From: a virus
Taxonomy: Duplodnaviria > Heunggongvirae > Uroviricota > Caudoviricetes
DNA length: 64,000 bases
Reading direction: 5' to 3' (one strand)
Virus record (IMG/VR): IMGVR_UViG_3300014205_000195
Coordinates: 28,184 to 92,183 of that record
Shown piece by piece: positions 23,237 through 57,961 of the stretch (within the stretch, counting starts at the first letter, position 1; each line of letters opens with the position of its first letter). Under the pieces are notes generated by a model. The model searched no databases. It saw nothing but the letters and a program-made list of their open reading frames with translations, and was not told the DNA's origin. The translations under genes were made by a program, and so were the position numbers.

Positions 23237-23314
23237 TGGTCTGGGTGGCAGGATTTGAACCCGCGACATCTCGGATCCGAACCGAGTACTCTGGCCAGGC
23301 TGAGCTACACCCAG
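23237..23314 (-). tRNA. tRNA-Pro(CGG)
   Basis: anticodon loop TTCGGAT; AC stem CTCGG/CCGAG; perfect acceptor CTGGGTG/CACCCAG; T-loop TTCAAAT; CCA encoded. Confidence 0.75.
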
Positions 23315-23319
23315 ACGAT

Positions 23320-23394
23320 TGGTCGGAACGACGGGATTCGAACCCGCGTCCTCCCGGTCCCAAACCGGGCGCGCGACCGCTGCGCTACATTCCG
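23320..23394 (-). tRNA. tRNA-Pro(TGG)
   Basis: anticodon loop TTTGGGA; AC stem CCCGG/CCGGG; T-loop TTCGAAT; CCA encoded. Confidence 0.75.
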
Positions 23395-23405
23395 ACTGAC
23401 TTGAT

Positions 23406-23483
23406 TGGTAACGGGGTCGAGAGTCGAACTCGATGATCTTCGGCTTATGAGGCCGACGAGACTTCCCTTTCTCCATCCCCGCA
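23406..23483 (-). tRNA. tRNA-Met(CAT)-like (third CAU tRNA; 1:72 mismatch)
   Basis: anticodon arm TCGGC-CTCATAA-GCCGA; T-arm TCGAG-TTCGACT-CTCGA; CCA encoded; the top acceptor pair is unpaired. Confidence 0.55.
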
Positions 23484-23587
23484 CCGCGGTGATCGCCGGT
23501 CGGATTCCCACCGACCGTCCGGGCCTGTGTTTCCCGGCGGTGGAGCGTGCGGCTTTACCCGCATGCCCTGTCGCCAGCGCACGTACC

Positions 23588-23603
23588 ACGCGTCGCGACG
23601 CGT
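23588..23603. repeat. perfect 16-bp palindrome ACGCGTCGCGACGCGT
   Basis: Sequence reads the same on both strands. Confidence 0.8.
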
Positions 23604-23620
23604 CGCGGCGATCGGCTCTT

Positions 23621-23697
23621 TGGTCTGGAAGGCGGGATTTGAACCCACGGCCCCTAGCCCCCCGAGCTAGTGCTCTACCAGGCTGAGCTACATCCAG
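23621..23697 (-). tRNA. tRNA-Pro(GGG)
   Basis: anticodon loop TCGGGGG (C33); AC stem CTAGC/GCTAG; T-loop TTCAAAT; CCA encoded; one acceptor mismatch. Confidence 0.65.
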
Positions 23698-23815
23698 ACG
23701 GGATTAGTAGTGGCGCGACCGACCACTCTCTCCCGGACCTTTCGTTGGCTTACCATGCGAGCACTCAAGGTGCCGATGGTCGGTCGCTTGCCAACATGAT
23801 ACCGGGGGACTGCTT

Positions 23816-23890
23816 TGGGGTGACCGGAGGGGCTCGAACCCTCGCCAGCTGAGTCACAATCAACCGTGCTGCCCTTACACCACGGTCACC
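23816..23890 (-). tRNA. tRNA-His(GTG)
   Basis: anticodon loop TTGTGAC; encoded extra 5' G(-1) opposite discriminator C (His hallmark); T-loop TTCGAGC; CCA encoded. Confidence 0.8.
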
Positions 23891-24050
23891 ATCCAGTGCC
23901 GGGCCTGACCCATCAGCCCAACCGCCCCGGCCTCCGCAGGTGATACCTACGCCAGGGTTCCCACCAACCGCCTCGTGAGGGCGGCGCCTTCGTCGGGACG
24001 GCGCGCTCTACCGCGGTGCGAACGCGGGAGCGCTGGCCGTCCTTCGTATA

Positions 24051-24125
24051 TGGTACCACGACCGGGAATCGAACCCGGGCCTCCGCCTTGAGAGGGCGGT
24101 GTCCTGGCCGCTAGACAATCGTGGC
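24051..24125 (-). tRNA. tRNA-Glu(CTC)
   Basis: anticodon loop CTCTCAA; AC stem CCGCC/GGCGG; T-arm CCGGG-TTCGATT-CCCGG; CCA encoded. Confidence 0.75.
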
Positions 24126-24128
24126 ACT

Positions 24129-24204
24129 TGGTAGCCCGTGCCGGATTCGAACCGGCGCCGTCCCGCTTGAAAGGCGGGCGTCCTGTCCGGTAGACGAACG
24201 GGCC
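24129..24204 (-). tRNA. tRNA-Glu(TTC)
   Basis: anticodon loop CTTTCAA; AC stem CCCGC/GCGGG; T-arm GCCGG-TTCGAAT-CCGGC; CCA encoded. Confidence 0.75.
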
Positions 24205-24361
24205 ACTTGTTCACTGCGGGCCGGGCTCGACACCGGCTTCCTTGTTTTCCCCGTTATAAGCGGGACATTCGGTATCCACCAACGGGCTAGCACGCGTTGG
24301 CGAAGGGGGAACCGCCTATCCAGCACCCCGCGTGTCCTTCCACGCTGCCGCAGTTCATTCT

Positions 24362-24437
24362 TGGTACCCCCGGCAGGACTCGAACCTGCGACCATCTCGT
24401 TAGGACCGAGCGACTCTATCCTCTGAGCTACGGAGGC
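24362..24437 (-). tRNA. tRNA-Arg(CCT)
   Basis: anticodon loop GTCCTAA; T-arm GCAGG-TTCGAGT-CCTGC; CCA encoded; one AC-stem mismatch. Confidence 0.65.
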
Positions 24438-24600
24438 ACTTCTTCATAAGGCCGGGCGACGAACTAAGCCGCCGCCCGGCCGAAGGCATACTATAAGGTT
24501 TCCCGCTTGGACTGGCCGCGACGCATCCTGTTGCGCCGCGACTCCTTGGTCGGATCGCATTACGCGGATATCGACCGGCGAACCGATCGACGTGTGTGTC

Positions 24601-24676
24601 TGGTACTCCAGGGGGGATTCGAACCCGCGACCTCCCAGATGTGAGCTGGGTGCTCTAGCCACTGAGCTACTGGAGT
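24601..24676 (-). tRNA. tRNA-Val(CAC)
   Basis: anticodon loop CTCACAT; AC stem CCCAG/CTGGG; perfect acceptor ACTCCAG/CTGGAGT; CCA encoded. Confidence 0.75.
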
Positions 24677-24838
24677 GCCTGGTCGTTAGACCCGCCTCCA
24701 GCGCTGCATGGGGGCGGGCTAGCCGGTCCTCGATGGCGTCCGACCTGCGGACTGTCCAAATACCGGCTCATACGATGGTAGGCGCGGGTCTGTGCGCTTA
24801 TTGCCTTGCATACTGCCTCTGCCTCCCATTGTGTTCTC

Positions 24839-24913
24839 TGGCACGGCCTGTAGGATTCGAACCCACATCGTCCGGGTTGGAGCCGGATGTCCTATCCGTT
24901 GAACGAAGTCCGC
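24839..24913 (-). tRNA. tRNA-Trp(CCA)
   Basis: anticodon loop CTCCAAC; AC stem TCCGG/CCGGA; T-loop TTCGAAT; CCA encoded; one acceptor mismatch. Confidence 0.65.
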
Positions 24914-26885: not shown

Positions 26886-27869
26886 TCACCGGAGGCCGCC
26901 GTGCAGCGACGCGAGGACGTCCAGCCTCGCGTCTATTATTGACGCCTTCTCTGACTCGCTCAGCTTCACCTTCCCGACGCCATCGGAGCCGTGCGTGTTC
27001 ACCACGCGGGCGAGCACCGGCGCGAGCTGGTGGCGCTTCGCGAGCACCTCGCCGCAGGCGGCCAACACGTTCCGACGGATGACGTCGTTCCCACGGTAGT
27101 CGTCCGCCTCGACGCTCTCCGGGCTGCCTATCCCGAGCTGCTGCTCGAGCCCCGGCCAGGAGTTTCCCTTCAGGAGCTCCCACACGGACTCCTCGTCCGT
27201 CGGGTCGTCCCACCGTCCGGCGTTGTCTATCGCCCACAGCCTGTCGTTCTCTGGGTCCACGATGAAGTTCGCGCCGTGCCTGTCCCAGTTGCCCAGCATC
27301 AGATCCATGACGACCATGCGGCTGTAGTCCCTGACCATCGCCTCGCTGATCTCGCCGTCGTACATCTGGGCCAGTCTCGCCTTGCCGCCGAACCCGGCGT
27401 CGTCCACCCACCGCAGCGCCATGCCGTCGAACCGTTTCTCCTCCGTCAGCTGGTAGACGCCGGGATGGAGCCCCCACCCCATGATCTCGTCCAGCTGTTG
27501 CCACTGCAGCTCGCCAGCCCTGTCCACCTTGCTGGCCTTGATGAGCATCCTGCTGTCGGATAGGCCGGGGACAGGATCGAACGTCCCAGGCTTAGCGTAC
27601 GCGGTGGCGCACTTCCCGCGGTTCAGCGTGCCCTGCTGATCGGCGCACGTCCACGTGTCGTCAACCTTGACGATGTGACCGAAACCCATCCGACCGCCGC
27701 GAGCCAACGAACGGCCGGAGGCGGCTGGCTGCTGCTCTGCCGGCCTGCCTGCCGAGTCGGCGTCGTAGTAGAGCCCACCGCGCTCGCCCTGACGGACGGT
27801 CGCGCCAGGCGGCGCCGAGCCGGGCCTCCCGGTGACGTAGACTCGTCCCTTCTCGTAGATCTGGGTCAC
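26886..27869 (-). CDS. PI3/PI4-kinase-like atypical protein kinase (327 aa) with N-terminal RGGLYYDAD motif
   Basis: Catalytic-loop-like LGNWDRHGANFIV and metal-binding-like LWAIDNAG (DRHxxN / IDxG). Confidence 0.6.
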   Translation of the reverse strand: MTQIYEKGRVYVTGRPGSAPPGATVRQGERGGLYYDADSAGRPAEQQPAASGRSLARGGRMGFGHIVKVDDTWTCADQQGTLNRGKCATAYAKPGTFDPVPGLSDSRMLIKASKVDRAGELQWQQLDEIMGWGLHPGVYQLTEEKRFDGMALRWVDDAGFGGKARLAQMYDGEISEAMVRDYSRMVVMDLMLGNWDRHGANFIVDPENDRLWAIDNAGRWDDPTDEESVWELLKGNSWPGLEQQLGIGSPESVEADDYRGNDVIRRNVLAACGEVLAKRHQLAPVLARVVNTHGSDGVGKVKLSESEKASIIDARLDVLASLHGGLR

Positions 27870-38277: not shown

Positions 38278-38868
38278 TTATGCGTGCCGTCCCAACAGCC
38301 TCATGTACCGGGTCAGCGCGACTATGGACTTGGCGTCTGCCACGCGGCCACCGTCTATGGCCGCCCACACCTCGTCCAGCCCGAGCCAGTGCATCGAGAC
38401 GCCCTCGCCGTGATCCTGCGGCAACGGGTCGCGCGTCAGCCCGGCGCAGTGGAAGATGGTTATCCGTTCGTTGCTGTACCCGGGCGACATGAGCAACGGC
38501 CGCCCCAGCCTGGTCAGCATGGACGGTCTCAGCCCGCACTCTTCGCGCAGCTCGCGCGCCGCCGCTTCGAAGTCCGTCTCACCGTCGTCCACGCGGCCGG
38601 CCGGCACCTCGTATGTCAGGTTCTCCACCGCGTGCCTGTACTGCGACACCAGCGCCACGCGGCCGTCGTCTGTCGCCACCATGGCGACCGTCCGTGGACG
38701 CTCGACCACCGAGCGCACCTGCTCGACGCCATCCACGATCACCACGTCGTCCCTCACCGGGACGAACCCGGTGAGAAGGTACTTGCTGCTCACGGGAGTG
38801 ACTGCGATGCGCCTGCTCCAGTTCATGGTCACAGCGCCGCCGCGAGGCGGACCTCGCCGAAGCTCCAC
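38278..38868 (-). CDS. Nudix hydrolase, ADP-ribose pyrophosphatase-like
   Basis: Nudix box GRVDDGETDFEAAARELREECG; 196 aa. Confidence 0.75.
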   Translation of the reverse strand: MELRRGPPRGGAVTMNWSRRIAVTPVSSKYLLTGFVPVRDDVVIVDGVEQVRSVVERPRTVAMVATDDGRVALVSQYRHAVENLTYEVPAGRVDDGETDFEAAARELREECGLRPSMLTRLGRPLLMSPGYSNERITIFHCAGLTRDPLPQDHGEGVSMHWLGLDEVWAAIDGGRVADAKSIVALTRYMRLLGRHA

Positions 38869-40259
38869 TCGCGAAGCAGCTCGCCGTCACGGAACACCTC
38901 CACGAGGTGGTTGCCCAAGGCGTCCGCCTTCGACTCGCTGACCGTCTTGAACGCGTTGCCGCTGGCGATCAGCCCCAGCCTGCCCTCCTTGGAGTTCTTG
39001 GACGGCATGCCGATGGGATGCTTGGAGACGCCCCGTCGCTCGCCGTTCACCGTGATCTCCGAGCACTTGATGGCGAACTGGATGGTGTCGCGGTTCACGT
39101 CGCGCAGCAGACCGCCGCCGGACCCGAACGCGATGTTGTCGAGCGACCATCGCGCATCGGCCACGGCCTGCATGATCCCGACGATGGACCGCCTGTTGAT
39201 GCCGTCGCCCTGGATCACCCTGATCTGCGGCGGCAGGACCCTGTACCCGGCGCCGTTCACGGTGAACCCGAACGCATCGCCCAGGATGCCAAGGACCTCG
39301 ACCACCACCTTCGCCGGCTCTCCGCTGTCAGGCCTCACGACCACGGTCCCGTTCCTCGAACGGACCGCATCCTTGAGCGAACCGCCCCACAGGTCGCGGC
39401 AGGCGTCGTAGATGTTGTAGCTGTCGCTGACGACCGCCACCATGCCTGTCGGGAACTGCTGCAACATGTTCCTGAAGGCGTCGCCCTCGTAAGCGCGGCC
39501 CCAGCTCGTGATGGTCGAGTGCTCCGCCGCGGGGATGCTGTGTCCAGGGTTGTCGGCCCCGTAGTAGGCGATGGCCAGCTCCATGCCGAGGTAGTTGTCG
39601 CTGCCGCTGAAGTTCACCAGGTGGGCGGCGCCGCCGAGGGCGGCCTCCTCCGGGCACGACACTCCGCGCGCGCCGAAGTCGTGGAGCCTGTAATCGGAGT
39701 ATGGGTCCGCGCCGGTCATCCTGGCGAACCTCACGATGTCAGCCTTCTGGGAACGCGACTGGCTGGCCACCGAGGTTGGGTACCAGACGTTGCTCAGGAG
39801 GGTCTCGATGTAGTTGGTCACCCACGGCATGGTCGGGTCGGTGTTCACGACGGAGAACAGCACGTTGCTCGGACCGATGACGGTGCCCTCCGGAACGGCC
39901 TTGATGCTCACCGGCCACCGGCCACCGTGCTTGCTCACTATCCGCTCCAGCCCGGCGCGGTTGTACACGAGCCCGTTCCCGCCGTGGACGGCGGCGACGC
40001 GGTCAGCCATGTACTCGACATCGTCGCTCGTCACCTGCTGGCCGACCAGGTACTCCTTCAGGAAGTACTGCAAACCGAAGAACACGATCGGGAAGTCAGA
40101 CCCGCGGGACTCGGCGTACGAGTACACCTCCTCGGTGTTCGGCGGGTAGCCGAGCCAGTGCCCTGACTTGTAGCTGTCCGTCCGCGCGATCCCACCGCCC
40201 CTGATCAAGCTGAGTGCCATGCCCGCGCCTCCTGCGCCAGTTTCGGAGACGGGCCGCAT
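38829..40259 (-). CDS. nadV: nicotinamide phosphoribosyltransferase (NAMPT/NadV)
   Basis: 476 aa; type II phosphoribosyltransferase architecture and motif set typical of NadV. Confidence 0.8.
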   Translation of the reverse strand: MRPVSETGAGGAGMALSLIRGGGIARTDSYKSGHWLGYPPNTEEVYSYAESRGSDFPIVFFGLQYFLKEYLVGQQVTSDDVEYMADRVAAVHGGNGLVYNRAGLERIVSKHGGRWPVSIKAVPEGTVIGPSNVLFSVVNTDPTMPWVTNYIETLLSNVWYPTSVASQSRSQKADIVRFARMTGADPYSDYRLHDFGARGVSCPEEAALGGAAHLVNFSGSDNYLGMELAIAYYGADNPGHSIPAAEHSTITSWGRAYEGDAFRNMLQQFPTGMVAVVSDSYNIYDACRDLWGGSLKDAVRSRNGTVVVRPDSGEPAKVVVEVLGILGDAFGFTVNGAGYRVLPPQIRVIQGDGINRRSIVGIMQAVADARWSLDNIAFGSGGGLLRDVNRDTIQFAIKCSEITVNGERRGVSKHPIGMPSKNSKEGRLGLIASGNAFKTVSESKADALGNHLVEVFRDGELLREWSFGEVRLAAAL

Positions 40260-40299
40260 CTCTGCGGCCCGTCAGGTACATGCTACCGGGCCGACGGCC

Positions 40300-41286
40300 C
40301 TACTTCGCCGGCGTCAGGAACGACGACGGGTCGAGGATGAAGCCCTGCCCAGACGGGACGAGGGCGATGGTGACGTTGTCAGCGAGCTTCTCGATGGCGC
40401 GGTTCTGGAGGATCTGTGGGGTGAGCGACGAGTCCACGATGCGGTTCGCGTCGGCCTCGCCCTGCGCCTCGATGACCTGCGCCTCTGCCCGGCCGTTCGC
40501 CTGGGCGACCAGCTGCTGCGCTTCGAACTCGCGCTGCTTCACCACTTCCTGGGCGCGGAGCGCTTCCTGGGTCGCGACCTGCTTCTGCTCGATGCTGTCG
40601 TTGAAGGCCGCCGAGTAGGAGATGTTGTCGATCTGGAGCGAGTTCACGGCGATCGAGTACGGGGCGAGCTCCTCGCCGAGCCGGCGCGTGACGACCTCGC
40701 GGATCTCGTCGCGCTTCTGCGTGACCTCGATCGCGTTGTACTGGACGGTCTCGTCCTTGAAGTACTGGTTGACACGGCTGAGGACGAGGATGTTGAAGTA
40801 GTCCGGCCCGACGTTGCGGAACAGGTCCTGCACGCGATTCGCGCTGATGGAGTAGTTGAGTGTGACCGTGAAGTTGACGTCCTGCGTCTCCGACGACGCG
40901 GCCGCGATGTTCTCGAACTTGAACGCCTGGATCTGGACGTTGGCGTTCTTGACGTTCTGCCATGGCGCGGTCAGGTTGAGGCCCTCATCGCGCTGGCCGA
41001 CGATCGATCCGAACTGGTACACGACCCCGACGTGGCCGGCAGGGACCGCATGGACGGAGCTGATGACGGTCATCAGCAGCCAGACGCCGGCCATGAAGCC
41101 GGCGACGCCGGCGAGGATCCGCCCAACGATGAGCGAGTCCTTGCTGGGCTGCCTGGTGCCGTAGCGGGACTCTGAGGAGGCGGCCGCAGCCAGCGCCTTG
41201 TGGTACGCGCCGAGAAATCGGCGCCTGATCTCCAGGCTGCCAACGCCGACGATGCCCAGGAGAATTGTCATCACTAACCAGAACAT
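40300..41286 (-). CDS. SPFH/band-7 (prohibitin/HflK-like) membrane protein
   Basis: N-terminal TM helix followed by SPFH domain and coiled-coil-like Ala/Gln/Glu-rich C-terminus. Confidence 0.75.
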   Translation of the reverse strand: MFWLVMTILLGIVGVGSLEIRRRFLGAYHKALAAAASSESRYGTRQPSKDSLIVGRILAGVAGFMAGVWLLMTVISSVHAVPAGHVGVVYQFGSIVGQRDEGLNLTAPWQNVKNANVQIQAFKFENIAAASSETQDVNFTVTLNYSISANRVQDLFRNVGPDYFNILVLSRVNQYFKDETVQYNAIEVTQKRDEIREVVTRRLGEELAPYSIAVNSLQIDNISYSAAFNDSIEQKQVATQEALRAQEVVKQREFEAQQLVAQANGRAEAQVIEAQGEADANRIVDSSLTPQILQNRAIEKLADNVTIALVPSGQGFILDPSSFLTPAK

Positions 41287-41338
41287 GGGACTCCTTTTGC
41301 CTCTGTGCTTTGAGTACTGTTTGAATGATACCTGGAAG

Positions 41339-41848
41339 CTAGGCCTCGACCGACCTCAGGCTCACCAGCAGGTCAACGACCGCCCGGTCGGCGATCTGTT
41401 CCATGATGTCGAGGCGATCGCCGTGGAAGAGGTACTCGTTGCACCTGACCTCGCGGAACGAATGGGCGATCGCGATGAAGCTCAGCCCCGCAGGCTTGGT
41501 CGACCTGGCGCCCGGGCGCTTGTACGAGAGGCTGCTCTCCGCGAGGCACACGTCGACCTTCGACCGGTCCCTCGCCCACATGGCCATCAGGCGCGTGGTG
41601 TCTGCGCTCACGGCGCCCATCTGGACGATGGCCTCCTCGCTGATGCCGGTGTGCTCGACCTTCGAGCGGTTGGAGTAGGCGACAACGCCGCCGTCGAACC
41701 AGGCTGACGCGCCGTTCACCGACACCAGCCGGCTGCTGATGAGGCCGCCGGCCGCCGTCTCAACGACGCAGATCTTCAGACCCCTGTCGGTCAGGATCCG
41801 ACCGATCTCCTGCAGACTCGTGTTGATGCTGACGGTATGAGCGTTCAA
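41339..41848 (-). CDS. CinA C-terminal-domain / PncC-like NMN amidohydrolase
   Basis: 169 aa; VVETAAGGLISSRL matches the ESCTGG signature of CinA/PncC. Confidence 0.65.
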   Translation of the reverse strand: MNAHTVSINTSLQEIGRILTDRGLKICVVETAAGGLISSRLVSVNGASAWFDGGVVAYSNRSKVEHTGISEEAIVQMGAVSADTTRLMAMWARDRSKVDVCLAESSLSYKRPGARSTKPAGLSFIAIAHSFREVRCNEYLFHGDRLDIMEQIADRAVVDLLVSLRSVEA

Positions 41849-41973: not shown

Positions 41974-42879
41974 CTAGAAGTCCCCGTCCGCCACCTGCAG
42001 GCAGGTGAGCCCGAGCGATCTCCAGAGCTGGACGACCTGGTTCCGGTCGTCCAGGACGAACCGGATGTTGTACTTGCCGCGGATGTGGGCGTCGAAGATC
42101 TCGGCCTTCACGACCGCGTCCTTCCGGCTGTCGCCCGTCCTCCGCATGTGGAGCGTGTAGTCCTTGATGGCAGCCGGCCCCTCGATGAACTCGACGGTCT
42201 GGTCGCGGTAGAGGCTCTCGCGCCCGGAGACGAAGATGATGTCGGTATCCCCTGAGAACCGCTTCAGCATGTGCCTCACTGGCCTGTTGGGGACGTCCAG
42301 GTGCGCGGTCGACGCGTTGTACGGGCTCCTGTGGTTGAGCTCGCAGGCGCACCCGTGCTCCTTGCAGAACAGGGCCAGCGTCCCGTCGAGGTCGCAGATG
42401 ATCGCCCACCGAAGGCCGGGCGTGTGCGCGTACTGCTCGAGCCTCCACGGCTCGCCGTAGTAGCGCCGAGCCATGTCTCTGATGACGGCCTCGCCGACCG
42501 GCCTGGCCCGCCGCGAGTCCCGCTCGATGGCGTCCTCAACGTCGACGTCCATCGTCTTGATCTCGACGCGGACGCCGAATACGTTGGCCAGCTCGTACAG
42601 GCGGCGCAGGTGCCGGTCCTCGAGGTTCGTGTCGTCCACGATGACCGAGCGGCCGGCCACGAGCGCCTCCGTGATCAGCCGGTCGCGCTCCGGCTCGACC
42701 TCGGACTTCTCGCGGTGCTTGTTCCAGCGGCCACTGTCCGGGCCGAGGCCGAGCCGCTCGCGGATATCGTCCTTGTTCACGCGGGTCCAGACGTCCGGGT
42801 CGCTGGCCTCGATGGCCCTGGCGAGGGTCGACTTGCCGGAGGCCGGCAGCCCGCGCATGATGGTCATGGTCTGCCTCAA
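41974..42879 (-). CDS. pnk: polynucleotide 5'-kinase / 3'-phosphatase (T4 Pnk-like: P-loop kinase + HAD phosphatase)
   Basis: Walker A GLPASGKST; C-terminal HAD motif I ICDLDGTL. Confidence 0.8.
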   Translation of the reverse strand: MRQTMTIMRGLPASGKSTLARAIEASDPDVWTRVNKDDIRERLGLGPDSGRWNKHREKSEVEPERDRLITEALVAGRSVIVDDTNLEDRHLRRLYELANVFGVRVEIKTMDVDVEDAIERDSRRARPVGEAVIRDMARRYYGEPWRLEQYAHTPGLRWAIICDLDGTLALFCKEHGCACELNHRSPYNASTAHLDVPNRPVRHMLKRFSGDTDIIFVSGRESLYRDQTVEFIEGPAAIKDYTLHMRRTGDSRKDAVVKAEIFDAHIRGKYNIRFVLDDRNQVVQLWRSLGLTCLQVADGDF

Positions 42880-43682
42880 AACAGGTTCCTCCTCACCTCG
42901 ATGATGAAATCGTTGACGGGCTCGACCTCGGTCGCCTTGCGGTCCGCCTCGCGGTACGTCCTGTCGAGCCGACGGGCGTAGTCGTCGGTGATCCTGATGA
43001 TCTCGTGCGGCTGCAGCGGGACGTCAAACGTCTCCGAGCTCAGCCCGGCCTTCCACGCCCTGAGCACGCTCTCGATGTCCGAGCCGACCACGCTCATGCT
43101 GAACGAGCCCGTGCGGATGAGCTCCTCGGCAATGTAGAGCGTGCGGAGCCACGCGACCGCGTACTTGTTGTAGCGCCCGTCCTTGTTGTCAAGCATCTTC
43201 GTGCGCTGATTGAACCCGTAGCCGCGGAAGGCGCTGTAGACGCCCTCGGTGCTCCAGACGTGCTCGAACAGGCCAAGCAGGCGCAACGTGTAGCCGGTGG
43301 CCGTCCACGAGTCGTCGTTCGACGAGACCGGCGACTTGAACGCCTCCAGGACGGACGGGTTTGACTTGCACGCCAGGAACAGGAAGTGCCCGAGCTCCCA
43401 CGACGTGTCGTCGACGGCCCCCTCGATCCACTGGCTGTTCCCGACCCTCGGCCGCTGCCCGTTCTCGGGGAGGACGAAGAAGTCCCTGGTGCGGGCGGCG
43501 TAGACGCCGCGGTAGTCGATGTCTGACGCCGGAGTCGCCAGCCCGTGGGCGTGGCTCCCGACGATGGTCTTGAGCAGAATCACTGTCCATCCTCCAACCC
43601 GTGGTAGTGCATGCCGTCCCACTCGTCCAGCCTCACGATCGGCTCGCCGTACTGGACTGGCGCAGGACGGCAGTCCTGCCAC
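42876..43682 (-). CDS. Pol-beta-superfamily nucleotidyltransferase
   Basis: GSHAHGLATPASDIDYRGVY (hG[GS]...D[IV]D motif); 268 aa. Confidence 0.6.
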   Translation of the reverse strand: MAGLPSCASPVRRADREAGRVGRHALPRVGGWTVILLKTIVGSHAHGLATPASDIDYRGVYAARTRDFFVLPENGQRPRVGNSQWIEGAVDDTSWELGHFLFLACKSNPSVLEAFKSPVSSNDDSWTATGYTLRLLGLFEHVWSTEGVYSAFRGYGFNQRTKMLDNKDGRYNKYAVAWLRTLYIAEELIRTGSFSMSVVGSDIESVLRAWKAGLSSETFDVPLQPHEIIRITDDYARRLDRTYREADRKATEVEPVNDFIIEVRRNLF

Positions 43683-44737
43683 ACCTTCTCGGTGCTCTTA
43701 CCGTCAAGCAGCAGCATGACGAGGCCCGGGTGCTTCGTTGCCTTGGCCTGCTCGGCTATCCAGCGGCGATCGTCGCCGCCCGGCCGCCTGGCCAGGATGT
43801 CCCTAAGGTCGACGGCCGCGGCCGCCAGCCTCTCGTCGTACCAGCCACGTATGGTGGCCTCCGTCGTCTCGACCCAGTCGACGAACCAGGCAGGCGCCTC
43901 GTGCCGGATGGAGTCGGCGTAGCCGTCGACGCCGCCGCGCATCGCGCGCCATATGGTCGCCGCGTTCGTGTCGAACACGTGCTTGTTCGCGATCAGGTAG
44001 TCGTCGAACTTCACCTTCAGCTTCAGGCCTGAGCCGGTGTACCTGATGACGAAGCCCTCCCTGTTCGGCTCCTGGAGGAGCTTCAGGTGGAGCGGGTTCT
44101 CGTCCGAGCCGGCGATGCCGAAGAACTCGGGGAGGTGCGGCCACTGGTCGTCGCGCGGCGGGAACTCCTGGCCGGTCGCCTTGTCGACGGTGCCGAGCAG
44201 GACTAGCCTCTCCTCGTCGTAGCGCACGACGGACGGGTTCTCCGGGTACACGATCTCGAAGACGTAGGTGACGTCCCTGTCGATGGACGGCCACAGGCCG
44301 GCGTACTGCGAGCGCAGGAGCCGGTTGGCGACCGCCGACTGCTTCGTGCGGAAGCTGCGCCGCGTGGCGACGTACGGCTCGTCGTCCATCCAGTACATCA
44401 CGCCGAGCGAGCCGTCGACCTTCTCCCACACCTCGTACGGGCCGGTCGGCAGCGGGCCCATGTGCTCCTCGTAATCGAAGAACTTCCCGAATGGGCGGGC
44501 CACGACGTTGCCGACGCCGTCCGTCACCAGGCCGCGGCACATGAGCGTCACGCGGTCCCACTGCCTGGAGTTGACGGCCAGGCTGGAGTAGCACCACGAG
44601 CTTAGGTCGGTCCGCGGATGCCGGCCGCGGTCGAGCAGGCCCCTGGAATGGTAGTCCTCGAGCTCGGCGATGTCGACGCGGGGCACGGCGCGATGGAGGG
44701 CCATCCCGGTCTCTTCCTTGGTTCTCATCTTGGCCAT
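43580..44737 (-). CDS. ATP-dependent RNA ligase (Rnl-family)
   Basis: Nucleotidyltransferase motif I EKVDGS (KxDG); 385 aa; adjacent to pnk. Confidence 0.7.
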   Translation of the reverse strand: MAKMRTKEETGMALHRAVPRVDIAELEDYHSRGLLDRGRHPRTDLSSWCYSSLAVNSRQWDRVTLMCRGLVTDGVGNVVARPFGKFFDYEEHMGPLPTGPYEVWEKVDGSLGVMYWMDDEPYVATRRSFRTKQSAVANRLLRSQYAGLWPSIDRDVTYVFEIVYPENPSVVRYDEERLVLLGTVDKATGQEFPPRDDQWPHLPEFFGIAGSDENPLHLKLLQEPNREGFVIRYTGSGLKLKVKFDDYLIANKHVFDTNAATIWRAMRGGVDGYADSIRHEAPAWFVDWVETTEATIRGWYDERLAAAAVDLRDILARRPGGDDRRWIAEQAKATKHPGLVMLLLDGKSTEKVWQDCRPAPVQYGEPIVRLDEWDGMHYHGLEDGQ

Positions 44738-46076: not shown

Positions 46077-46694
46077 TTAGATGCCCCGCACGTACTTCAA
46101 ATCATGCCGCCACCGGCCCACGTCCGTCAACGCGTCGTGGATGGCTGCCATGTCCTCCGTGATCTGCACAAACCGGCTGAGCGCCTGCATGATGCCCTCT
46201 ATCACAGTGGGCGTGTAGTCAGGGTCGTCCACCAGGAGCGCCCTGTACGCCGGGCGGAGCGCCTGTCGGAGGGTTATCCTCTCCGCGCCGACGGTGTTGT
46301 CTATGGCGGCCACGCGACCGTCCGCGGTCACCAGCCAGTTGTTGGAGTGCCTGTCGCTGTTGCCGACAACGTAGTCCATGACGACCATGTTGGCGATGTC
46401 CAGGATCGCCCGTTCAGACGACCTGACCGCCATGTATAGGTCCGGGCCGAGCTCGTCGGCGGTCCTGCCATCGACGAACATCTGGGCGGATCTGTGCTCG
46501 TCGTACTGGACGGTCAGCGGGACTATCCCGTCGAACACGGCTGCCGCGACCGCGTACGCCGCCACCTCGTCGTGCCCGTCCCGAAGAACCCACCTGTTGC
46601 CGAGCACGTCCGTCGCTATCCTGATGCCCGACAGCCCAGGCCTCACCTCCCCGGCGTTCGGCTCCCTGACTGACACGAACCACCCGTTATCCAC
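46077..46694 (-). CDS. PI3/PI4-kinase-like atypical protein kinase (205 aa), paralogue of 26886..27869
   Basis: VGNSDRHSNNWLV ... AAIDN motifs. Confidence 0.55.
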   Translation of the reverse strand: MDNGWFVSVREPNAGEVRPGLSGIRIATDVLGNRWVLRDGHDEVAAYAVAAAVFDGIVPLTVQYDEHRSAQMFVDGRTADELGPDLYMAVRSSERAILDIANMVVMDYVVGNSDRHSNNWLVTADGRVAAIDNTVGAERITLRQALRPAYRALLVDDPDYTPTVIEGIMQALSRFVQITEDMAAIHDALTDVGRWRHDLKYVRGI

Positions 46695-53658: not shown

Positions 53659-54535
53659 CCACGTCCCCCAATTCGTCCTCGGCCACGTAGACCTCGCGGC
53701 CCTCGTTGTCCGCCGTGAACACGGTCTCGTCCCACTTGGTCATCAGCGCCTCGCTGACGGCCTTAGGCCCCACGCCCAGGCCGTCCTGGAGGTTGTAGCA
53801 CGCCTGCTCACGGTAGCACTTCCGGCACGTGATCGACCCGCGCTTGAACGGTGGGTCTATCAGCTGGCCAGCCAGCGTCGCCTCGCGAGCGGCCAGGCTG
53901 TTTGTGAAGGCCATCGTCATCAGCTTCTCGTTCGGCCTGAACCAGCGTATGCAGTAGTCCTGGTCGTTGGTGTTCTCGAACAGGAAGAAGACGTCGTCTG
54001 ACAGCTCTGGGTACAGCCGCCTGAACTCCACGAGGTACTGCGTCAGCTGGAAGACGTATGACGATTCAGCCTTGTACATCACGCTCGCCATGGCCAGGTA
54101 GTCGCGCTCCTGCGCCGGGACGCGCCTGAACCGACCGTCGTTCATCGTCTTTATCTCGCCAAGATGCGTCTTCCCGGTGACGGGGTTCCTGACCATGACG
54201 TCGTACTCGCCGGACCAGTAGCCCGGGATCTTCAGGCGCTCGCCGCCCTTGACGAGGACGCCGGCCTTGTCCAACTCGGCGGTCCACCTGGCGTGCGCCG
54301 CCGTCCCGTTGTCCATGCGCCTGCGGTTCTTCGGCTTTATCTCCGTGTGGTGGCCGAGCATGGACAGCTGTATGTCGCGGATGCACGGGCTGCCTGCCCC
54401 AGACGGGTGGATCTCTGGGTTGGGGGCGGTCCACCGCTCCGGCTCGCCAGACGGCGCGCGGTCTATGGCGGTCCCAAGCCAGTCACCCGTGTCCAGCTGC
54501 TTCAGCCTCCTGGCGAGCAGCCCGCCGTCAGCCAA
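53639..54535 (-). CDS. PD-(D/E)XK-family nuclease-like protein (298 aa)
   Basis: ...GEYDVMV...HLGEIKT... pattern consistent with a D..(D/E)xK nuclease core. Confidence 0.45.
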   Translation of the reverse strand: MADGGLLARRLKQLDTGDWLGTAIDRAPSGEPERWTAPNPEIHPSGAGSPCIRDIQLSMLGHHTEIKPKNRRRMDNGTAAHARWTAELDKAGVLVKGGERLKIPGYWSGEYDVMVRNPVTGKTHLGEIKTMNDGRFRRVPAQERDYLAMASVMYKAESSYVFQLTQYLVEFRRLYPELSDDVFFLFENTNDQDYCIRWFRPNEKLMTMAFTNSLAAREATLAGQLIDPPFKRGSITCRKCYREQACYNLQDGLGVGPKAVSEALMTKWDETVFTADNEGREVYVAEDELGDVDELVEF

Positions 54536-55379
54536 CGTCGGCCGCCAGCTTCTTCACCCAGGCAGCCATCGGCTCGCCGTCCCACGGGGCCAACACGTCC
54601 CCCCAGCGACCGGAGCTGGCCGCATCCACCGAGCATACGGCGCTGAACTGCGATGCCATCATGCGCATGATTGGGCCTTCGTCCCTGGCAAGGTGCGAGG
54701 CAGCGACGTTCGCGAGCGTCTTGCCCTTGACCGGCGTCGGGCGCAGATCGAAGTGCCGCTCGTACACGTGCGCGTTGCCGGCCAGGTGCGAGTACGGGCC
54801 GAGCTCGACACCGAGCGCGTCTGCCACGCACATCTGCACTGCAACGAAGCATGGGACGTCGTTTGTCAGGCCCCACACCAGGTCCCACGACCTCATGTTC
54901 ACCGTCATCTCAAGCCGGCCGTGCCTGACCATGAACTGCCACGACACTGTGCACGGGACCTCGCGCTCGCTGCGCTGCTGCACCTTCAGGAGGTCGTTCT
55001 CGCGGCCCACGTGCACGATCGCGCGCCTCGAGTCTGGGTCGTCCGTCAGCTCCCTGACCACGTCCAGCAGCTGCGAGCTCACGCGCGGCCCGTACGCGCC
55101 GTGAGGCGTCATGAGATCGGCAGCCTGCTGCGATATCCGGGCGAGCACCCCGCCGTCGTACGTGCCACCTATCATCTGGGCGGCCTCCATCCACATGAGG
55201 GCGCGACTGATGCCTGGCCTCGTGACGAGGCACGCCTCTGGCCTCGTGAGCCTGAGCAGGAGCGGCCGCACCTCCATGACCTCCATGCCGCGCGGCCTAG
55301 ACAGCTCGCCGTCGTCCAGCACGTCCAGGAGCAGGTCCGGGTACGTGAACCCCAAGTCGTCGGTCTCGTGCACGAGCAT
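54528..55379 (-). CDS. thymidylate synthase / dNMP hydroxymethylase-family protein (divergent)
   Basis: 283 aa; ThyA-fold signatures including the nucleophile Cys in VPCTVSWQF (ThyA reads PCHxxFQF; here His is replaced by Thr). Confidence 0.65.
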   Translation of the reverse strand: MLVHETDDLGFTYPDLLLDVLDDGELSRPRGMEVMEVRPLLLRLTRPEACLVTRPGISRALMWMEAAQMIGGTYDGGVLARISQQAADLMTPHGAYGPRVSSQLLDVVRELTDDPDSRRAIVHVGRENDLLKVQQRSEREVPCTVSWQFMVRHGRLEMTVNMRSWDLVWGLTNDVPCFVAVQMCVADALGVELGPYSHLAGNAHVYERHFDLRPTPVKGKTLANVAASHLARDEGPIMRMMASQFSAVCSVDAASSGRWGDVLAPWDGEPMAAWVKKLAADVG

Positions 55380-55381
55380 CG

Positions 55382-56320
55382 CTAAACCACCGTGAACCCG
55401 CGCTCCTCGAGCGTCGGGAACTTTGTTATATTGGACGGCACCTCCGGCTCCGTCACGCGCCCGCTGGCGCCGTCGATGAGCCGCCCGTACTCGACGACGT
55501 CCTTGTAGCGCTCAGCCGACCACAGCGTGGCCGACGGGACGCTCCGGTACTCGGTGACACCGGCCGCCTCGCAGGCAGCCTCGCCAGCGTCGCCGAACGC
55601 CACGAACTCGGTCGACATCCAAAAGTCGCTGCCGTCGAACCCGTCCAGCGACTCGACGACGCACACCTGGTTCAGCGGTATGCCGGCCCCGACCATCGCC
55701 CTGAACAGGTACCTGTTGGGCGCGTCGCCGACGAGACAGAGCCTCGGGCTGTAGCCGTTGCCGAACCACGAGCCCAGCGGCATCGGCGACGACTCGAAGA
55801 ACCCGACGATGCCCTCTATCTCGGCGATCGCCGACTCGAGCGCACCTGGCACGGTAAAGTCGTACGAGATCCACGGGAGCGCCGTGATGCTGCCGACGTA
55901 CGCCTCGTACAGCTGCCTGACCTGCGCCTGCATGGCAGGCGCCTCGTACACCGCCGCATCCTCGTCTATCGGGCCTGCGGCTACGTTCGCGTCGCTGGCG
56001 GATGCCGGCGGGTTAGCCCATACGAGCAGCGAGTTGTAGCCCATCAGGGTCCCCTCTATCTGCCAGTGCTCGTACGGCGTCAGGTCATCCATGCCGCGGA
56101 AGATGGTCCCGTACACGAAGCTGCCGATGTGCAGCCTGTCCAGGACGGCATGCCCGTACGGGTGCCGGCGCACAGCGTCTAGGTAGAACGCGAGCGGCTC
56201 GTACGTCGGCGGGCCGGCGTGCTCTATGCCCCAGCCGCGCTCCACGAGCGCGTTCGCCAGCGTCGTCTTCCCCGTGCCGTCTGCGCCCTCTATCAAAACG
56301 AACGGACGTCTGGTCATGCC
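55382..56320 (-). CDS. thymidylate-kinase-like dNMP kinase fused to a C-terminal domain of unknown function
   Basis: P-loop LIEGADGTGKTT (Tmk signature); start trimmed to MTRRPFV (ATG 56320) giving a 4-nt overlap with the upstream deaminase gene. Confidence 0.65.
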   Translation of the reverse strand, partial: GMTRRPFVLIEGADGTGKTTLANALVERGWGIEHAGPPTYEPLAFYLDAVRRHPYGHAVLDRLHIGSFVYGTIFRGMDDLTPYEHWQIEGTLMGYNSLLVWANPPASASDANVAAGPIDEDAAVYEAPAMQAQVRQLYEAYVGSITALPWISYDFTVPGALESAIAEIEGIVGFFESSPMPLGSWFGNGYSPRLCLVGDAPNRYLFRAMVGAGIPLNQVCVVESLDGFDGSDFWMSTEFVAFGDAGEAACEAAGVTEYRSVPSATLWSAERYKDVVEYGRLIDGASGRVTEPEVPSNITKFPTLEERGFTVV

Positions 56321-56757
56321 TGCCCCCTCTTGCCGCCGGTCAGGTCCGGCGCACCACTGTGGTCCTCGTAGTCCTCGAGCCACCGCCACTCGTCTATGCC
56401 GGCGGCCCTCAGCAGCTTCTGGCACTCGTAGCACGGCTTCACGAGCGTGAACAGCACCGCGCCGGCCGTCGGGTGCCCATGGGCCGCCGCCTGGGCGACG
56501 GCGTTGGCCTCTGCGTGGACCGTCCGCTTGCAGTGGCCGTCCACGATGAAGCACCCGACGTCAGTGCAGTGCGGCTCGCCAGGGGGCGAGCCGTTGAAGG
56601 CTGTCGCCACGATGTAGGGCTTGCCGCCGGCCCCTGTGCGCGTCAGAACTGCGCCGACGCGCCTCCGCGGGCACGTGCTCTGCTCCGCCCACACCCTGGC
56701 CGTCTGCCAGATCGACTCGTCCTTGGACGGCCTAGTACCCGGTGTTCTGTCTGTCAA
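56314..56757 (-). CDS. dCMP deaminase (cytidine/deoxycytidylate deaminase family)
   Basis: HAEANAV ... PCYECQKLL zinc-binding motifs (HAE / PCxxC). Confidence 0.8.
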   Translation of the reverse strand: MTDRTPGTRPSKDESIWQTARVWAEQSTCPRRRVGAVLTRTGAGGKPYIVATAFNGSPPGEPHCTDVGCFIVDGHCKRTVHAEANAVAQAAAHGHPTAGAVLFTLVKPCYECQKLLRAAGIDEWRWLEDYEDHSGAPDLTGGKRGQA

Positions 56758-57166: not shown

Positions 57167-57501
57167 TCGTCCACGAACGCCGTTATCCTGTCCTTCAGAT
57201 TACCGAGATTAGATGCGGTCACCTCGTCGTCCCTGACGCGCAGCACTGCCACGCCGGCGACGCTCAGCAGGAGTGCGTCCCTCTCCGTATCCTTCCTGGA
57301 CTTTGCCGTGCTGCCGTGGTGCCAGTCGCGCCCGTCGTACTCGACCGCTGCGTGCACCTCCTCGAGGTAACAGTCGACCGTGTACGGACCGACCTCGTAC
57401 TCATCCTCCACGGCCAGCCCGAGCGACCTCAACAGCGACGACAACCGCTGGTGACCGGCCGTCAGCGACGTCGACTGGCCCGGCCTCCCGCTACGAAGCA
57501 A
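57109..57501 (-). CDS. Vsr/DUF559-like endonuclease-fold protein
   Basis: VDCYLEEVHAAVEYDGRDWH core. Confidence 0.4.
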   Translation of the reverse strand: MLRSGRPGQSTSLTAGHQRLSSLLRSLGLAVEDEYEVGPYTVDCYLEEVHAAVEYDGRDWHHGSTAKSRKDTERDALLLSVAGVAVLRVRDDEVTASNLGNLKDRITAFVDECGEDVEVRRVRWVSGWME

Positions 57502-57961
57502 AGTTGTCCCGGACGTACCTCAGCCACGCCCCGTCGGCCCTCTCCCGGTTCTCCTCGCGCACCTGCATCAACAACATGCCGAGCCTGTTCAGCCCGACGC
57601 CGTCCACCACGCCCCAATACCTGTCTCCCCAGCGGTTGTCCTCCAGGAGGATTGAGTCGCCGGTGTCGTCCAGCATGAGCACCAGGTTGGAGTACACAAA
57701 CTTCTGCCTGAGGAGGTCCAGCATGACGTCGTCCTTGACGTCCTCCCAGTCCGGCCTCAGATCTGCCAGGCGGCCCAGCGCCTTAGCGTCGGCCGCCTTG
57801 TACGAGTTCATCACAGCCACCCTGTAGTCTGGATCGAGCGACTTGGACGCCTGGTACGCGTGCTCCACTGACCTGAACGGGAGCGAGAACGCGACCACCT
57901 CCACCGGCCAGAAGTTGGACAGGAACCGGTGCCGACCCTGGAACCCCATCACGACGTCCAC
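57491..57961 (-). CDS. NADAR (YbiA-like) domain protein
   Basis: FLSNFWP ... EHAYQASK motifs characteristic of the NADAR/DUF1768 family. Confidence 0.7.
   Translation of the reverse strand: MDVVMGFQGRHRFLSNFWPVEVVAFSLPFRSVEHAYQASKSLDPDYRVAVMNSYKAADAKALGRLADLRPDWEDVKDDVMLDLLRQKFVYSNLVLMLDDTGDSILLEDNRWGDRYWGVVDGVGLNRLGMLLMQVREENRERADGAWLRYVRDNFAS

What the first reader, a model, noticed from the sequence alone, without database searches (positions are those of the whole stretch)
38278..41848. NAD+ salvage block (Nudix ADP-ribose pyrophosphatase, NAMPT, CinA/PncC-like) with an SPFH protein; a NADAR gene elsewhere
NAMPT beside an ADPR pyrophosphatase resembles phage NAD+ reconstitution pathways that counter NAD-depleting defences such as Thoeris, DSR and SIR2-type effectors. 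A CinA/PncC-like NMN deamidase next to them is unexpected, and no NMNAT domain was seen. A NADAR domain protein (57491..57961) could reverse ADP-ribosylation (DarT-like) or process ADPR. Together these suggest a multi-pronged NAD/ADPR counter-defence.
Basis: partly seen in the sequence, partly recalled or inferred. Interest (0 to 1): 0.75.

Follow-up and report, generated by a model that had tools for sequence, protein, structure and literature searches.

The report
Phage NAD salvage block without NMNAT
An uncultured high-GC phage carries an NAD+ salvage gene block (ADP-ribose pyrophosphatase, NAMPT and an unusual PncC/CinA-like amidohydrolase) with no NMN adenylyltransferase found, a variant of the known phage NAD+ rebuilding pathways that probably hands the last steps to host enzymes.

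Summary
At the stated coordinates, all on the minus strand, lie a NudF-type Nudix, a NAMPT with every catalytic residue intact, a membrane SPFH protein and a single-domain CinA/PncC-family protein. A YbiA-type NADAR lies 15.6 kb away.

CinA–NAMPT–Nudix is a conserved module. It recurs in at least three other uncultured phage lineages (CinA 44–59% identical), and where the Nudix is present it overlaps NAMPT by 4 nt. Those relatives also carry PnuC and a NadR-like NMNAT/kinase (the published NARP3) immediately upstream. The window phage lacks both. No NMNAT was found in about 84 kb of its 107-kb contig.

SPFH is an insertion specific to this phage and belongs to a common phage family. NADAR shows no linkage to the block.

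The CinA-like protein has the PncC fold and keeps the phosphate-binding and general-base residues. However, the catalytic Ser is Thr and the active-site loop "TGIAGP" reads "SSLSYK". Both changes are invariant in the phage clade, so NMN deamidase activity is inferred, not shown.

Most likely mechanism: ADPR → ribose-5-phosphate → (host Prs) PRPP → NMN → NaMN → (host NadD/NadE) NAD+. This is a new variant of NARP2-type NAD+ reconstitution. PncC-like genes are not reported in published surveys of phage NAD genes.

The parts
38278..38832 (-). NudF-type Nudix hydrolase, predicted ADP-ribose pyrophosphatase. It is 184 aa from the GTG at 38832; the longest ORF runs to 38868.
   Evidence: Pfam NUDIX 1.1e-16. 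Best solved-structure matches are all ADPR pyrophosphatases at about 1e-17: 8wv3, Mtb 1mk1, T. thermophilus 1v8i. The Nudix box GRVDDGETDFEAAARELREECGL is complete, and the SPGYSNE loop has a Pro 16 residues after the box. The start overlaps the NAMPT stop by 4 nt (GTGA) here and in L003 and L005.
38829..40259 (-). Nicotinamide phosphoribosyltransferase (NAMPT/NadV), 476 aa
   Evidence: NAMPT_N plus NAPRTase. NF006629 518.6 bits against cutoff 405. 424 bits to human NAMPT, with Y18, F193, R196, D219, H247, R311, D313, G353-D354-G355 and R392 all conserved in the alignment. phrog_448 1.4e-138.
40300..41286 (-). Membrane-anchored SPFH/Band 7 protein, 328 aa. It is an insertion specific to this phage and not part of the conserved module.
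   Evidence: Band_7 9.2e-24. phrog_200 5.3e-50. Two N-terminal hydrophobic segments are visible in the sequence. It is absent between CinA and NAMPT in L003, L005, L007, L009 and L011.
41339..41848 (-). Single-domain CinA/PncC-family amidohydrolase, Thr-variant subclade, 169 aa. Predicted NMN deamidase or related enzyme.
   Evidence: PF02464 1.5e-34. TIGR00199 83.9 against cutoff 68.9. AF2 model pLDDT 93.8 with TM 0.86-0.89 to CinA structures including 2A9S. Compared with the published blocks: ETAAGG (S31T), GAS, YSNRSK, GAVS, SSLSYKRPGA, KPAG, GDR.
57491..57961 (-). YbiA-type NADAR protein, 156 aa. It lies elsewhere in the genome and no linkage to the block was demonstrated.
   Evidence: PF08719 1e-18. 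Best structure match is E. coli YbiA 2b3w at 1e-14, with Glu in the last strand. phrog_1017 8e-36. Neighbours are RecA, a DUF559-type endonuclease, a dUTPase_2/MazG-like protein and dCMP deaminase.

Best explanation
The block is a phage NAD+ salvage/reconstitution module built from bacterial-type parts. Its conserved core is CinA-like – NAMPT – Nudix.

Proposed flow:
1. The NudF-type Nudix splits ADP-ribose, the product of TIR/SIR2/SEFIR-type NADases, into AMP and ribose-5-phosphate.
2. Host Prs turns ribose-5-phosphate into PRPP.
3. NAMPT joins PRPP and nicotinamide to give NMN.
4. The PncC-like protein deamidates NMN to NaMN.
5. Host NadD and NadE, which prefer the deamidated route, finish NAD+.

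Removing NMN would also protect NAD-dependent DNA ligase from NMN inhibition. This phage appears to have no NMNAT of its own, so the PncC step is what connects NAMPT to NAD+.

Related phages keep the same core and add PnuC and a NadR-like NMNAT/NR kinase, giving a direct amidated route as well. The likely benefit is keeping NAD+ up during infection, including against NAD-depleting defences.

The SPFH gene is an unrelated insertion and the NADAR gene is independent.

Shown here: domain identities, an intact NAMPT active site, an ADPRase-type Nudix, conserved synteny with overlapping genes, and absence of NMNAT in about 78% of the contig. Inferred: all enzyme activities, the hand-off to host NadD/NadE, and the counter-defence role.
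For: - Domains and curated cutoffs.
- NAMPT catalytic residues all conserved against human NAMPT.
- The Nudix matches ADPR pyrophosphatase structures and carries the ADPRase loop.
- The CinA fold is confirmed. It keeps G46/S48, Y58, N60, K63, G120 and R145, the residues whose loss marks inactive paralogues or whose mutation abolishes activity.
- All pocket residues are invariant across phage homologues only 44-59% identical, which argues for selection on function.
- CinA sits next to NAMPT in four phage lineages: the window phage, L003, L005-7 and L009/L011. The Nudix follows with a 4-nt overlap where the contig extends that far.
- No minus-strand terminator was found in 37.7-45 kb, consistent with co-transcription.
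- No NMNAT was found by Pfam, by tblastn with the relatives' NadR and PnuC, or by a NadR profile and NatV phmmer with a positive control. The fetched flanks show only PolA/DnaB on one side and structural genes on the other.
- None of the top 120 NadR-like homologues comes from the 107,438, 92,183 or 46,412-bp contigs of this phage.
- Literature: PncC channels NMN into the deamidated route. ADPRases supply ribose-5-phosphate/PRPP and tend to associate with NAD-recycling enzymes, as in the COG1058-PncC and Nudix-NadM fusions (PMC3680494; PMC10907753). Phage Nampt pathways counter Thoeris, DSR and SIR2-HerA (bioRxiv 10.1101/2024.02.11.579819).
Against: - The catalytic nucleophile Ser31 is Thr. 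Cys32 and Thr33 are Ala, and block P-VI (S/T)G(I/V)AGPxGG reads SSLSYKRPGA. S31A is inactive in AtCinA, and S31T has not been tested anywhere I could find.
- Relatives encode a NadR-type NMNAT next to the same CinA gene. PncC is therefore not needed there as a substitute, and its role may be something else.
- About 23 kb of the 107-kb contig could not be read, so an NMNAT could still be there.
- The Nudix is below the NCBIfam ADPRase cutoffs, so its substrate is not established.
- The host is unknown; the terminase is only about 23% identical to any cultured phage. Host NadD/NadE preference is assumed from general bacterial biochemistry.
- There is no experimental evidence for any step.
Confidence: 0.5

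Rival explanations
1. This is an ordinary NARP2 pathway. The phage does encode an NMNAT (NadM/NatV-type or other) in the roughly 23 kb of genome that could not be read. NAMPT plus that NMNAT make NAD+ directly. The CinA-like protein is only an accessory that trims excess NMN, for example to protect NAD-dependent ligase.
For: 94% of phages with a KVP40-type Nampt also encode Nmnat. Relatives of this phage do carry a NadR-type NMNAT beside CinA, so CinA coexists with NMNAT in this lineage.
Against: No NMNAT was found in record positions 1-84,231 of 107,438. The unread part follows a long run of structural and tail genes. No NadR orthologue from this phage's contigs appears among the best 120 homologues. 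In relatives the NMNAT sits directly in the NAD cluster; here that position runs straight from Pnkp to CinA.
Confidence: 0.17
2. The CinA-like protein is not an NMN deamidase. The Thr-for-Ser change and the rebuilt, more basic active-site loop (YKRPGAR) mark a subfamily with another substrate or role. Candidates are another nicotinamide nucleotide, such as NR, NAD(P) or a larger phosphorylated ligand, or a non-catalytic nucleotide binder. The module then does something beyond the classical pyridine nucleotide cycle.
For: S31T, C32A, T33A and P-VI changes are invariant in the phage clade. Only 26 of 166 top family hits have Thr at this position. Only one representative cluster in 1.84 billion scores below E 1e-30. 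Known CinA paralogues (YdeJ, YfaY) lack deamidase activity despite sharing the fold. The gene coexists with NMNAT in relatives.
Against: The inactive paralogues lose the phosphate-binding residues or Tyr58, whereas this protein keeps G46/S48, Y58, N60, K63 and R145. Thr can act as a nucleophile or support the water-attack mechanism proposed for TtCinA. The protein passes the PncC_domain cutoff. Its constant neighbour is the enzyme that makes NMN.
Confidence: 0.23
3. The genes are general auxiliary metabolic genes that boost NAD+ supply for a large, metabolically demanding phage. This phage has RNR, RNA repair genes, 39 tRNAs and probable DNA hypermodification. On this view the genes are not specifically a counter-defence.
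For: The block sits among nucleotide-metabolism and RNA-repair genes. NARP2 raises NAD+ even without a defence system. There are no PADLOC or anti-defence hits for these proteins beyond weak Nudix and NADAR matches.
Against: This rival is not exclusive of the main reading and uses the same biochemistry. The ADPRase partner makes most sense when ADPR is abundant, that is after NADase attack. Published Nampt pathways do overcome NAD-depleting defences.
Confidence: 0.1

Closest known systems
NARP2 (Nampt + Nmnat; Vibrio phage KVP40 NadV/NatV; Osterman et al. 2024)
   Same: A true NAMPT-clade enzyme (47% identical to NAMPTs of phages that carry NatV). A Nudix ADPR-pyrophosphatase-type activity is associated with it. 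The starting substrates, PRPP and nicotinamide, are the same.
   Different: No NMNAT was found. The Nudix is a stand-alone bacterial NudF type, not the NadM/NatV-fused type (only 28 bits to the ACP17 NatV Nudix), and this type is rare in cultured phages (19 records). A PncC-like gene is added.
NARP3 (PnuC + NadR-like; Sci Adv 2026, PMC13464706)
   Same: Relatives L003 and L005/6 carry PnuC and a NadR-like NMNAT/NR kinase directly upstream of the same CinA–NAMPT–Nudix core; the short contigs L007, L009 and L011 show the NadR-like gene but end before a PnuC position.
   Different: The window phage has neither gene. NARP3 as published has no NAMPT, Nudix or CinA component.
Bacterial pyridine nucleotide cycle: NadV–PncC–NadD–NadE route, and the bifunctional CinA (COG1058 ADPRase fused to PncC)
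   Same: The reaction logic is the same: Nam to NMN to NaMN to NaAD to NAD. It also pairs an ADPR pyrophosphatase with an NMN deamidase (PMC3680494).
   Different: The module is phage-encoded. The ADPRase is a Nudix, not COG1058, and is a separate gene. The PncC-like protein has Thr instead of the catalytic Ser and a rebuilt P-VI loop.
NARP1 (Adps + Namat)
   Same: Both recycle the two NADase products, ADPR and nicotinamide, into NAD+.
   Different: There is no PRPS-like Adps in the window. The transferase is far closer to NAMPT (424 bits) than to the weaker 'NAMPT'-named PDB entries at about 200 bits. ADPR is broken down rather than pyrophosphorylated.

Membership tests
NARP2 (phage Nampt + Nmnat) | Nampt-clade phosphoribosyltransferase with intact catalytic residues | tested here: met
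   NF006629 518.6 against 405. Y18, F193, R196, D219, H247, R311, D313, GDG and R392 are conserved against human NAMPT.
NARP2 (phage Nampt + Nmnat) | Nmnat (NadM/NatV or NadR type) encoded by the same phage | tested here: not met
   No PF01467 in the window. The NadR profile and NatV searches were negative in the window, L050, L051 and L062, with a positive control. Caveat: 23 kb of the 107-kb contig was not read.
NARP2 (phage Nampt + Nmnat) | Raises NAD+ and rescues the phage from NAD-depleting defence | not testable with these tools
   Needs infection assays and NAD+ measurements.
NARP1 (Adps + Namat) | PRPS-like ADPR diphosphokinase (Adps) next to the transferase | tested here: not met
   No Pribosyltran or PRPP-synthetase domain in any window ORF.
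NARP3 (PnuC + NadR-like) | PnuC transporter and bifunctional NadR-like enzyme | tested here: not met
   Absent from the window by tblastn and HMM. Both genes are present in relatives L003 and L005/6; L007, L009 and L011 show the NadR-like gene only.
PncC NMN deamidase (CinA C-terminal domain family) | CinA/PncC fold and family model | tested here: met
   PF02464 1.5e-34. TIGR00199 83.9 against 68.9. TM 0.89 to 2A9S with pLDDT 93.8.
PncC NMN deamidase (CinA C-terminal domain family) | Block P-I AESCTGG with the catalytic Ser31 | tested here: not met
   The block reads VETAAGG, with Ser31 changed to Thr and Cys32 and Thr33 changed to Ala. This is invariant in the phage clade. S31A is inactive in AtCinA.
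PncC NMN deamidase (CinA C-terminal domain family) | General base Lys63 with Tyr58/Asn60 (YxNxxK), and phosphate binders G46/S48 and R145 | tested here: met
   YSNRSK, GAS and GDR align to the AtCinA residues.
PncC NMN deamidase (CinA C-terminal domain family) | Block P-VI (S/T)G(I/V)AGPxGG | tested here: not met
   The block reads SSLSYKRPGA. Only the Ser/Thr105 position is kept.
PncC NMN deamidase (CinA C-terminal domain family) | NMN to NaMN activity | not testable with these tools
   Needs an enzyme assay.
Nudix ADP-ribose pyrophosphatase (NudF/YffH/NUDT5 group) | Complete Nudix box GX5EX7REUXEEXGU | tested here: met
   GRVDDGETDFEAAARELREECGL, read from the sequence.
Nudix ADP-ribose pyrophosphatase (NudF/YffH/NUDT5 group) | ADPRase-specific downstream Pro/SPGxxxE loop, and closest relatives are ADPRases | tested here: met
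   Pro lies 16 residues after the box within SPGYSNE, aligned to SPGFADE of 8wv3. The top 11 PDB matches are ADPRases or NudF. The Pro rule is from Dunn et al. 1999, from my own knowledge.
Nudix ADP-ribose pyrophosphatase (NudF/YffH/NUDT5 group) | Passes a curated ADPRase family cutoff | tested here: not met
   TIGR00052 28.5 against 79.55. NudE NF008736 64.4 against 169.
SPFH/Band 7 | Band_7 domain with an N-terminal membrane anchor | tested here: met
   PF01145 84.9 against 23.6. Hydrophobic segments at residues 2-17 and 55-76. phrog_200.
NADAR (YbiA subfamily) | NADAR domain with Glu in the last strand | tested here: met
   PF08719 68.5 against 35.1. Alignment to YbiA 2b3w pairs LLED with LVEH. 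Subfamily rule from PMC11125620.

The most novel reading that the evidence does not exclude
A fourth kind of phage NAD+ reconstitution route. NAMPT-made NMN is deamidated by a phage-specific Thr-type PncC and handed to the host's NadD/NadE, while a NudF-type ADPRase recycles the ADP-ribose left by immune NADases into PRPP precursors. The phage needs no NMNAT of its own. A stronger version is that the Thr-type CinA subfamily has a new substrate among NAD-derived nucleotides.
Probability: 0.35. Interest if true: 0.7.

Novelty: new variant of a known kind. Interest (0 to 1): 0.55.

Why it matters
Phage NAD+ reconstitution (NARP1, NARP2, NARP3) is a recent and active topic. All published routes end with a phage-encoded enzyme that makes NAD+ itself.

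A module that stops at NaMN and relies on host NadD/NadE would show that phages can plug into the deamidated branch. It would add PncC-like enzymes to the anti-defence repertoire. It would also explain some of the roughly 6% of Nampt phages that lack Nmnat.

The relatives carry PnuC, NadR, CinA, NAMPT and Nudix in one island. This shows that NARP2-like and NARP3-like parts can be combined.

The Thr-variant CinA subfamily is itself uncharacterised. All parts are small and easy to test in the published Thoeris/DSR assay systems.

Tried and rejected
- **AAA_28 protein at 9920-10507 as a NadR-type NR kinase: rejected.** It has no similarity to the relatives' NadR and gives only a P-loop hit to the NadR profile. 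Its best PHROG is thymidylate kinase.
- **Nucleoside 2-deoxyribosyltransferase at 11443-12087 as an NAD gene:** no evidence.
- **megablast of the block against INPHARED phages:** no match. The terminase is only about 23% identical to any cultured phage, so no annotated relative or host could be used.
- **IMG/VR scan for the phage CinA clade:** no relatives.
- **JGI metagenome and GTDB genome scans:** these returned mostly canonical ESCTGG bacterial CinA genes. My regex test for neighbouring Nudix genes was too strict to be informative. The genomic context of the bacterial Thr-type subfamily therefore stays unresolved, apart from one Nudix–CinA overlap in L010.
- **Walking the contig:** limited by tool rules.
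- **Papers:** a search for the sample accessions found nothing. The KVP40 paper (PMC5388814) is not held.
- **PADLOC:** no meaningful hits.
- **The idea that SPFH anchors the pathway to the membrane:** dropped, because the gene is absent from all relatives.


Full report
**What the window is.** The window is 66% G+C, with almost all genes on the minus strand. It encodes a portal, prohead protease, ribonucleotide reductase, RecA, primase and a DnaB-like helicase, plus 39 tRNAs. It is therefore part of a tailed phage genome.

An exact protein look-up places it on a 107,438-bp ENA metagenome contig (ERZ27247358 k141_1647009). The window corresponds to record positions of about 3,907-67,906, reversed. 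It also lies on Logan contigs of 46 and 30 kb and on a 92-kb JGI contig.

No cultured phage is close. megablast of the block finds nothing, and the 506-aa putative large terminase (no Pfam hit; named from weak tblastn matches to annotated terminases) is only about 23% identical to its best INPHARED hits. The host is unknown.

**Check of the observation.** Pfam confirms NUDIX (1.1e-16), NAMPT_N plus NAPRTase (1.3e-23 and 7.4e-48), Band_7/SPFH (9.2e-24) and CinA PF02464 (1.5e-34), and NADAR (1e-18) at 57491-57961.

*NAMPT.* It passes the curated NAMPT equivalog (518.6 bits, cutoff 405) and scores 424 bits against human NAMPT. In that alignment every residue I know to be needed for nicotinamide/PRPP binding and autophosphorylation is conserved: Y18, F193, R196, D219, H247, R311, D313, G353-D354-G355 and R392.

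*Nudix.* The box is complete. Its best solved relatives are all ADP-ribose pyrophosphatases at about 1e-17: a Bacillus NudF-like enzyme, M. tuberculosis Rv1700 and T. thermophilus Ndx4. It has the SPGxxxE loop with a proline 16 residues after the box, which is typical of ADPRases. It stays below the NCBIfam equivalog cutoffs, so the substrate is a good inference, not a demonstration. Gene callers on the source contigs start the Nudix at 38832, where its GTG overlaps the NAMPT TGA by 4 nt.

**No NMNAT.**
- Pfam on every plausible window ORF found no cytidylyltransferase-like domain.
- I built a profile from 120 NadR-type homologues. It detects the NMNAT domain of the Acidovorax phage ACP17 NatV protein as a positive control. 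It finds nothing in the window, in the 3.4 kb beyond the right edge (a 177-aa ORF, DNA polymerase A, then the contig end) or in the 16.3 kb beyond the left edge (tail and fibre genes).
- None of the 120 best homologues of the relatives' NadR-like protein comes from a contig of this phage.

About 84 of 107 kb is therefore cleared. About 23 kb, downstream of a long structural block, could not be reached with the tools.

**Related phages.** The closest CinA homologues (44-59% identical) lie on other metagenome contigs with phage gene content. The gene order is the same in all of them: RNA ligase – RlaP – Pnkp – PnuC – NadR-like – small Cys-rich ORF – CinA – NAMPT – Nudix – RuvC-like – Rv2179c-like exonuclease … RNR.

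CinA next to NAMPT is seen in four lineages: the window phage, L003/4, L005-7 and L009/L011. The 4-nt NAMPT/Nudix overlap is seen in the three lineages that extend that far. This is good evidence that the three genes work together.

The relatives' 358-aa NadR-like protein has the GKFAPFHKGHQ nucleotidyltransferase motif plus an AAA_28 kinase domain. Its homologues are named NadR-type NMN adenylyltransferase by JGI. With PnuC it matches the recently published NARP3 pathway.

The window phage differs in two ways. PnuC and NadR are missing, so Pnkp is followed directly by CinA. An SPFH gene sits between CinA and NAMPT.

That SPFH gene is absent from all relatives and belongs to phrog_200, a large phage family. 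It has the same codon bias as its neighbours and no terminator around it. I read it as an inserted passenger gene, not a pathway component.

**The CinA-like protein.** It has the PncC fold: AF2 pLDDT 93.8, TM 0.86-0.89 to CinA-family structures including the characterised A. tumefaciens NMN deamidase 2A9S. It passes the PncC_domain model.

I compared it with the conserved blocks and mutational data published for NMN deamidases (PMC3855486 and PMC5384747).

| Block | Canonical | This protein |
|---|---|---|
| P-I | AESCTGG | VETAAGG (nucleophile Ser31 → Thr; Cys32, Thr33 → Ala) |
| P-II | G46/S48 | GAS, kept |
| P-III | Y58, N60, K63 | YSNRSK, kept |
| P-IV | GAVS | kept |
| P-VI | (S/T)G(I/V)AGPxGG | SSLSYKRPGA |
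| – | G120 | kept |
| – | R145 | kept |

K63 is the general base. Loss of the kept positions (P-II, P-III, R145) marks the inactive paralogues YdeJ and YfaY, and mutating Y58, K63 or R145 abolishes activity.

All of these residues, including the unusual ones, are invariant among the six phage-clade sequences. The pocket is therefore under selection.

In a search of 1.84 billion representative proteins, only one cluster scores below 1e-30. Among the 166 best family hits, 26 have Thr at the Ser31 position. Most of these belong to a bacterial 'ETAAGG … AETGIAGPQTGRRS' subgroup from which the phage clade probably derives.

I found no biochemical data on any Thr-type member. NMN deamidase is thus the best available inference but is not secure.

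**Mechanism.** Established bacterial biochemistry gives a coherent route.
- ADPRases are repeatedly found fused or linked to NAD-recycling enzymes, as in COG1058–PncC and Nudix–NadM (PMC3680494).
- NAMPT makes NMN.
- PncC converts NMN to NaMN and so links the nicotinamide salvage route to the Preiss-Handler steps.
- NadD and NadE complete NAD+.

For a phage with NAMPT but no NMNAT, the PncC step is what makes NAMPT useful in a host whose adenylyltransferase prefers NaMN. That preference is my knowledge of NadD and was not tested here. Removing NMN would also avoid inhibition of NAD-dependent DNA ligase, again from my own knowledge.

Osterman et al. showed that a phage Nampt pathway overcomes Thoeris and other NAD-depleting systems, and that 94% of Nampt phages also carry Nmnat. 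This phage would belong to the remaining minority and shows one way such phages may cope.

The main weakness is that relatives have both NadR and CinA, so CinA cannot be only a substitute for NMNAT. It may provide a parallel deamidated branch, control NMN levels, or do something not yet known.

**NADAR.** The protein is of the YbiA type, with Glu in the last strand and a best structure match to E. coli YbiA at 1e-14. It belongs to a common phage family, phrog_1017.

However, the gene lies 15.6 kb away, next to RecA, a DUF559-type endonuclease, a dUTPase_2/MazG-like protein and dCMP deaminase. Nothing here ties it to the NAD block.

**Comparison with known systems and novelty.** The module works like NARP2 and like the bacterial NadV–PncC–NadD–NadE cycle.
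- It fails the NARP2 membership test on Nmnat, within the sequence that could be read.
- It fails NARP1 (no Adps).
- It fails NARP3 (no PnuC or NadR in this phage).

Both accessory enzymes are bacterial types that are rare in cultured phages. The CinA-like protein matches only 10 of 50,697 records and the NudF-type Nudix only 19, and most of those are unannotated fragments. The 2022 survey of viral NAD/ADPR systems lists NadV, NadM and NadR and never mentions CinA or PncC. A full-text search for phage NMN deamidase found only unrelated neuroscience papers.

I classify it as a new variant of a known kind. It is of moderate to good interest because it is directly testable in the published assay systems.

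Noticed in passing
window 5031-7997 (-): A 988-aa fusion of prohead serine protease (S78), a second NUDIX domain, DUF5661 and a 2H phosphoesterase (LigT-like) domain. Nudix fused to the capsid-processing protease is a pattern described by Iyer et al. 2022 as probably packaged and injected. The added 2H domain was not examined.
   Followed up: partly
window 41974-44737 (-); also L005 2074-4906: An RNA-repair cassette (T4 Rnl1-like ligase, RlaP nucleotidyltransferase, Pnkp kinase/phosphatase) lies directly upstream of the NAD block. The same order is seen in relatives.
   Followed up: partly
window 8624-24913 (-), 12345-13241 (-), 13280-14794 (-): A 39-tRNA array is interspersed with a PrfH-like release-factor homologue (RF-1/PCRF) and a Ro60/TROVE-vWA protein. 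Together these form an unusually rich translation and RNA-rescue set.
   Followed up: no
window 18295-19185 (-); ~54528-55379 (-); 56314-57166 (-): A 5-hmdU DNA kinase helical domain (2e-53), a thymidylate-synthase-like gene, a dCMP deaminase and a dUTPase_2/MazG-like gene suggest thymidine hypermodification of the phage DNA.
   Followed up: no
L003 1857-2129; L005 6821-7159; L009 741-1037: A conserved 90-112 aa Cys-rich ORF (CKIC…DPWD) sits between the NadR-like gene and CinA in the relatives L003, L005/6/7 and L009 (not checked in L011). It is absent from the window phage.
   Followed up: no
L010 7613-8471 (bacterial contig ERZ25039562): A bacterial Thr-type (ETAAGG) CinA gene overlaps the end of a weak-Nudix ORF, and a MoCF_biosynth gene lies two genes upstream. 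This hints that the Nudix–CinA pairing predates the phage module.
   Followed up: partly
window 26886-27869 (-) and 46077-46694 (-): Two small proteins have PI3/PI4-kinase-like catalytic motifs. One of them sits next to the portal gene.
   Followed up: no
window ~61998-62558 (-): An MT-A70 family methyltransferase lies between the DnaB-like helicase and the primase. It was seen only in the gene table of the source contig.
   Followed up: no
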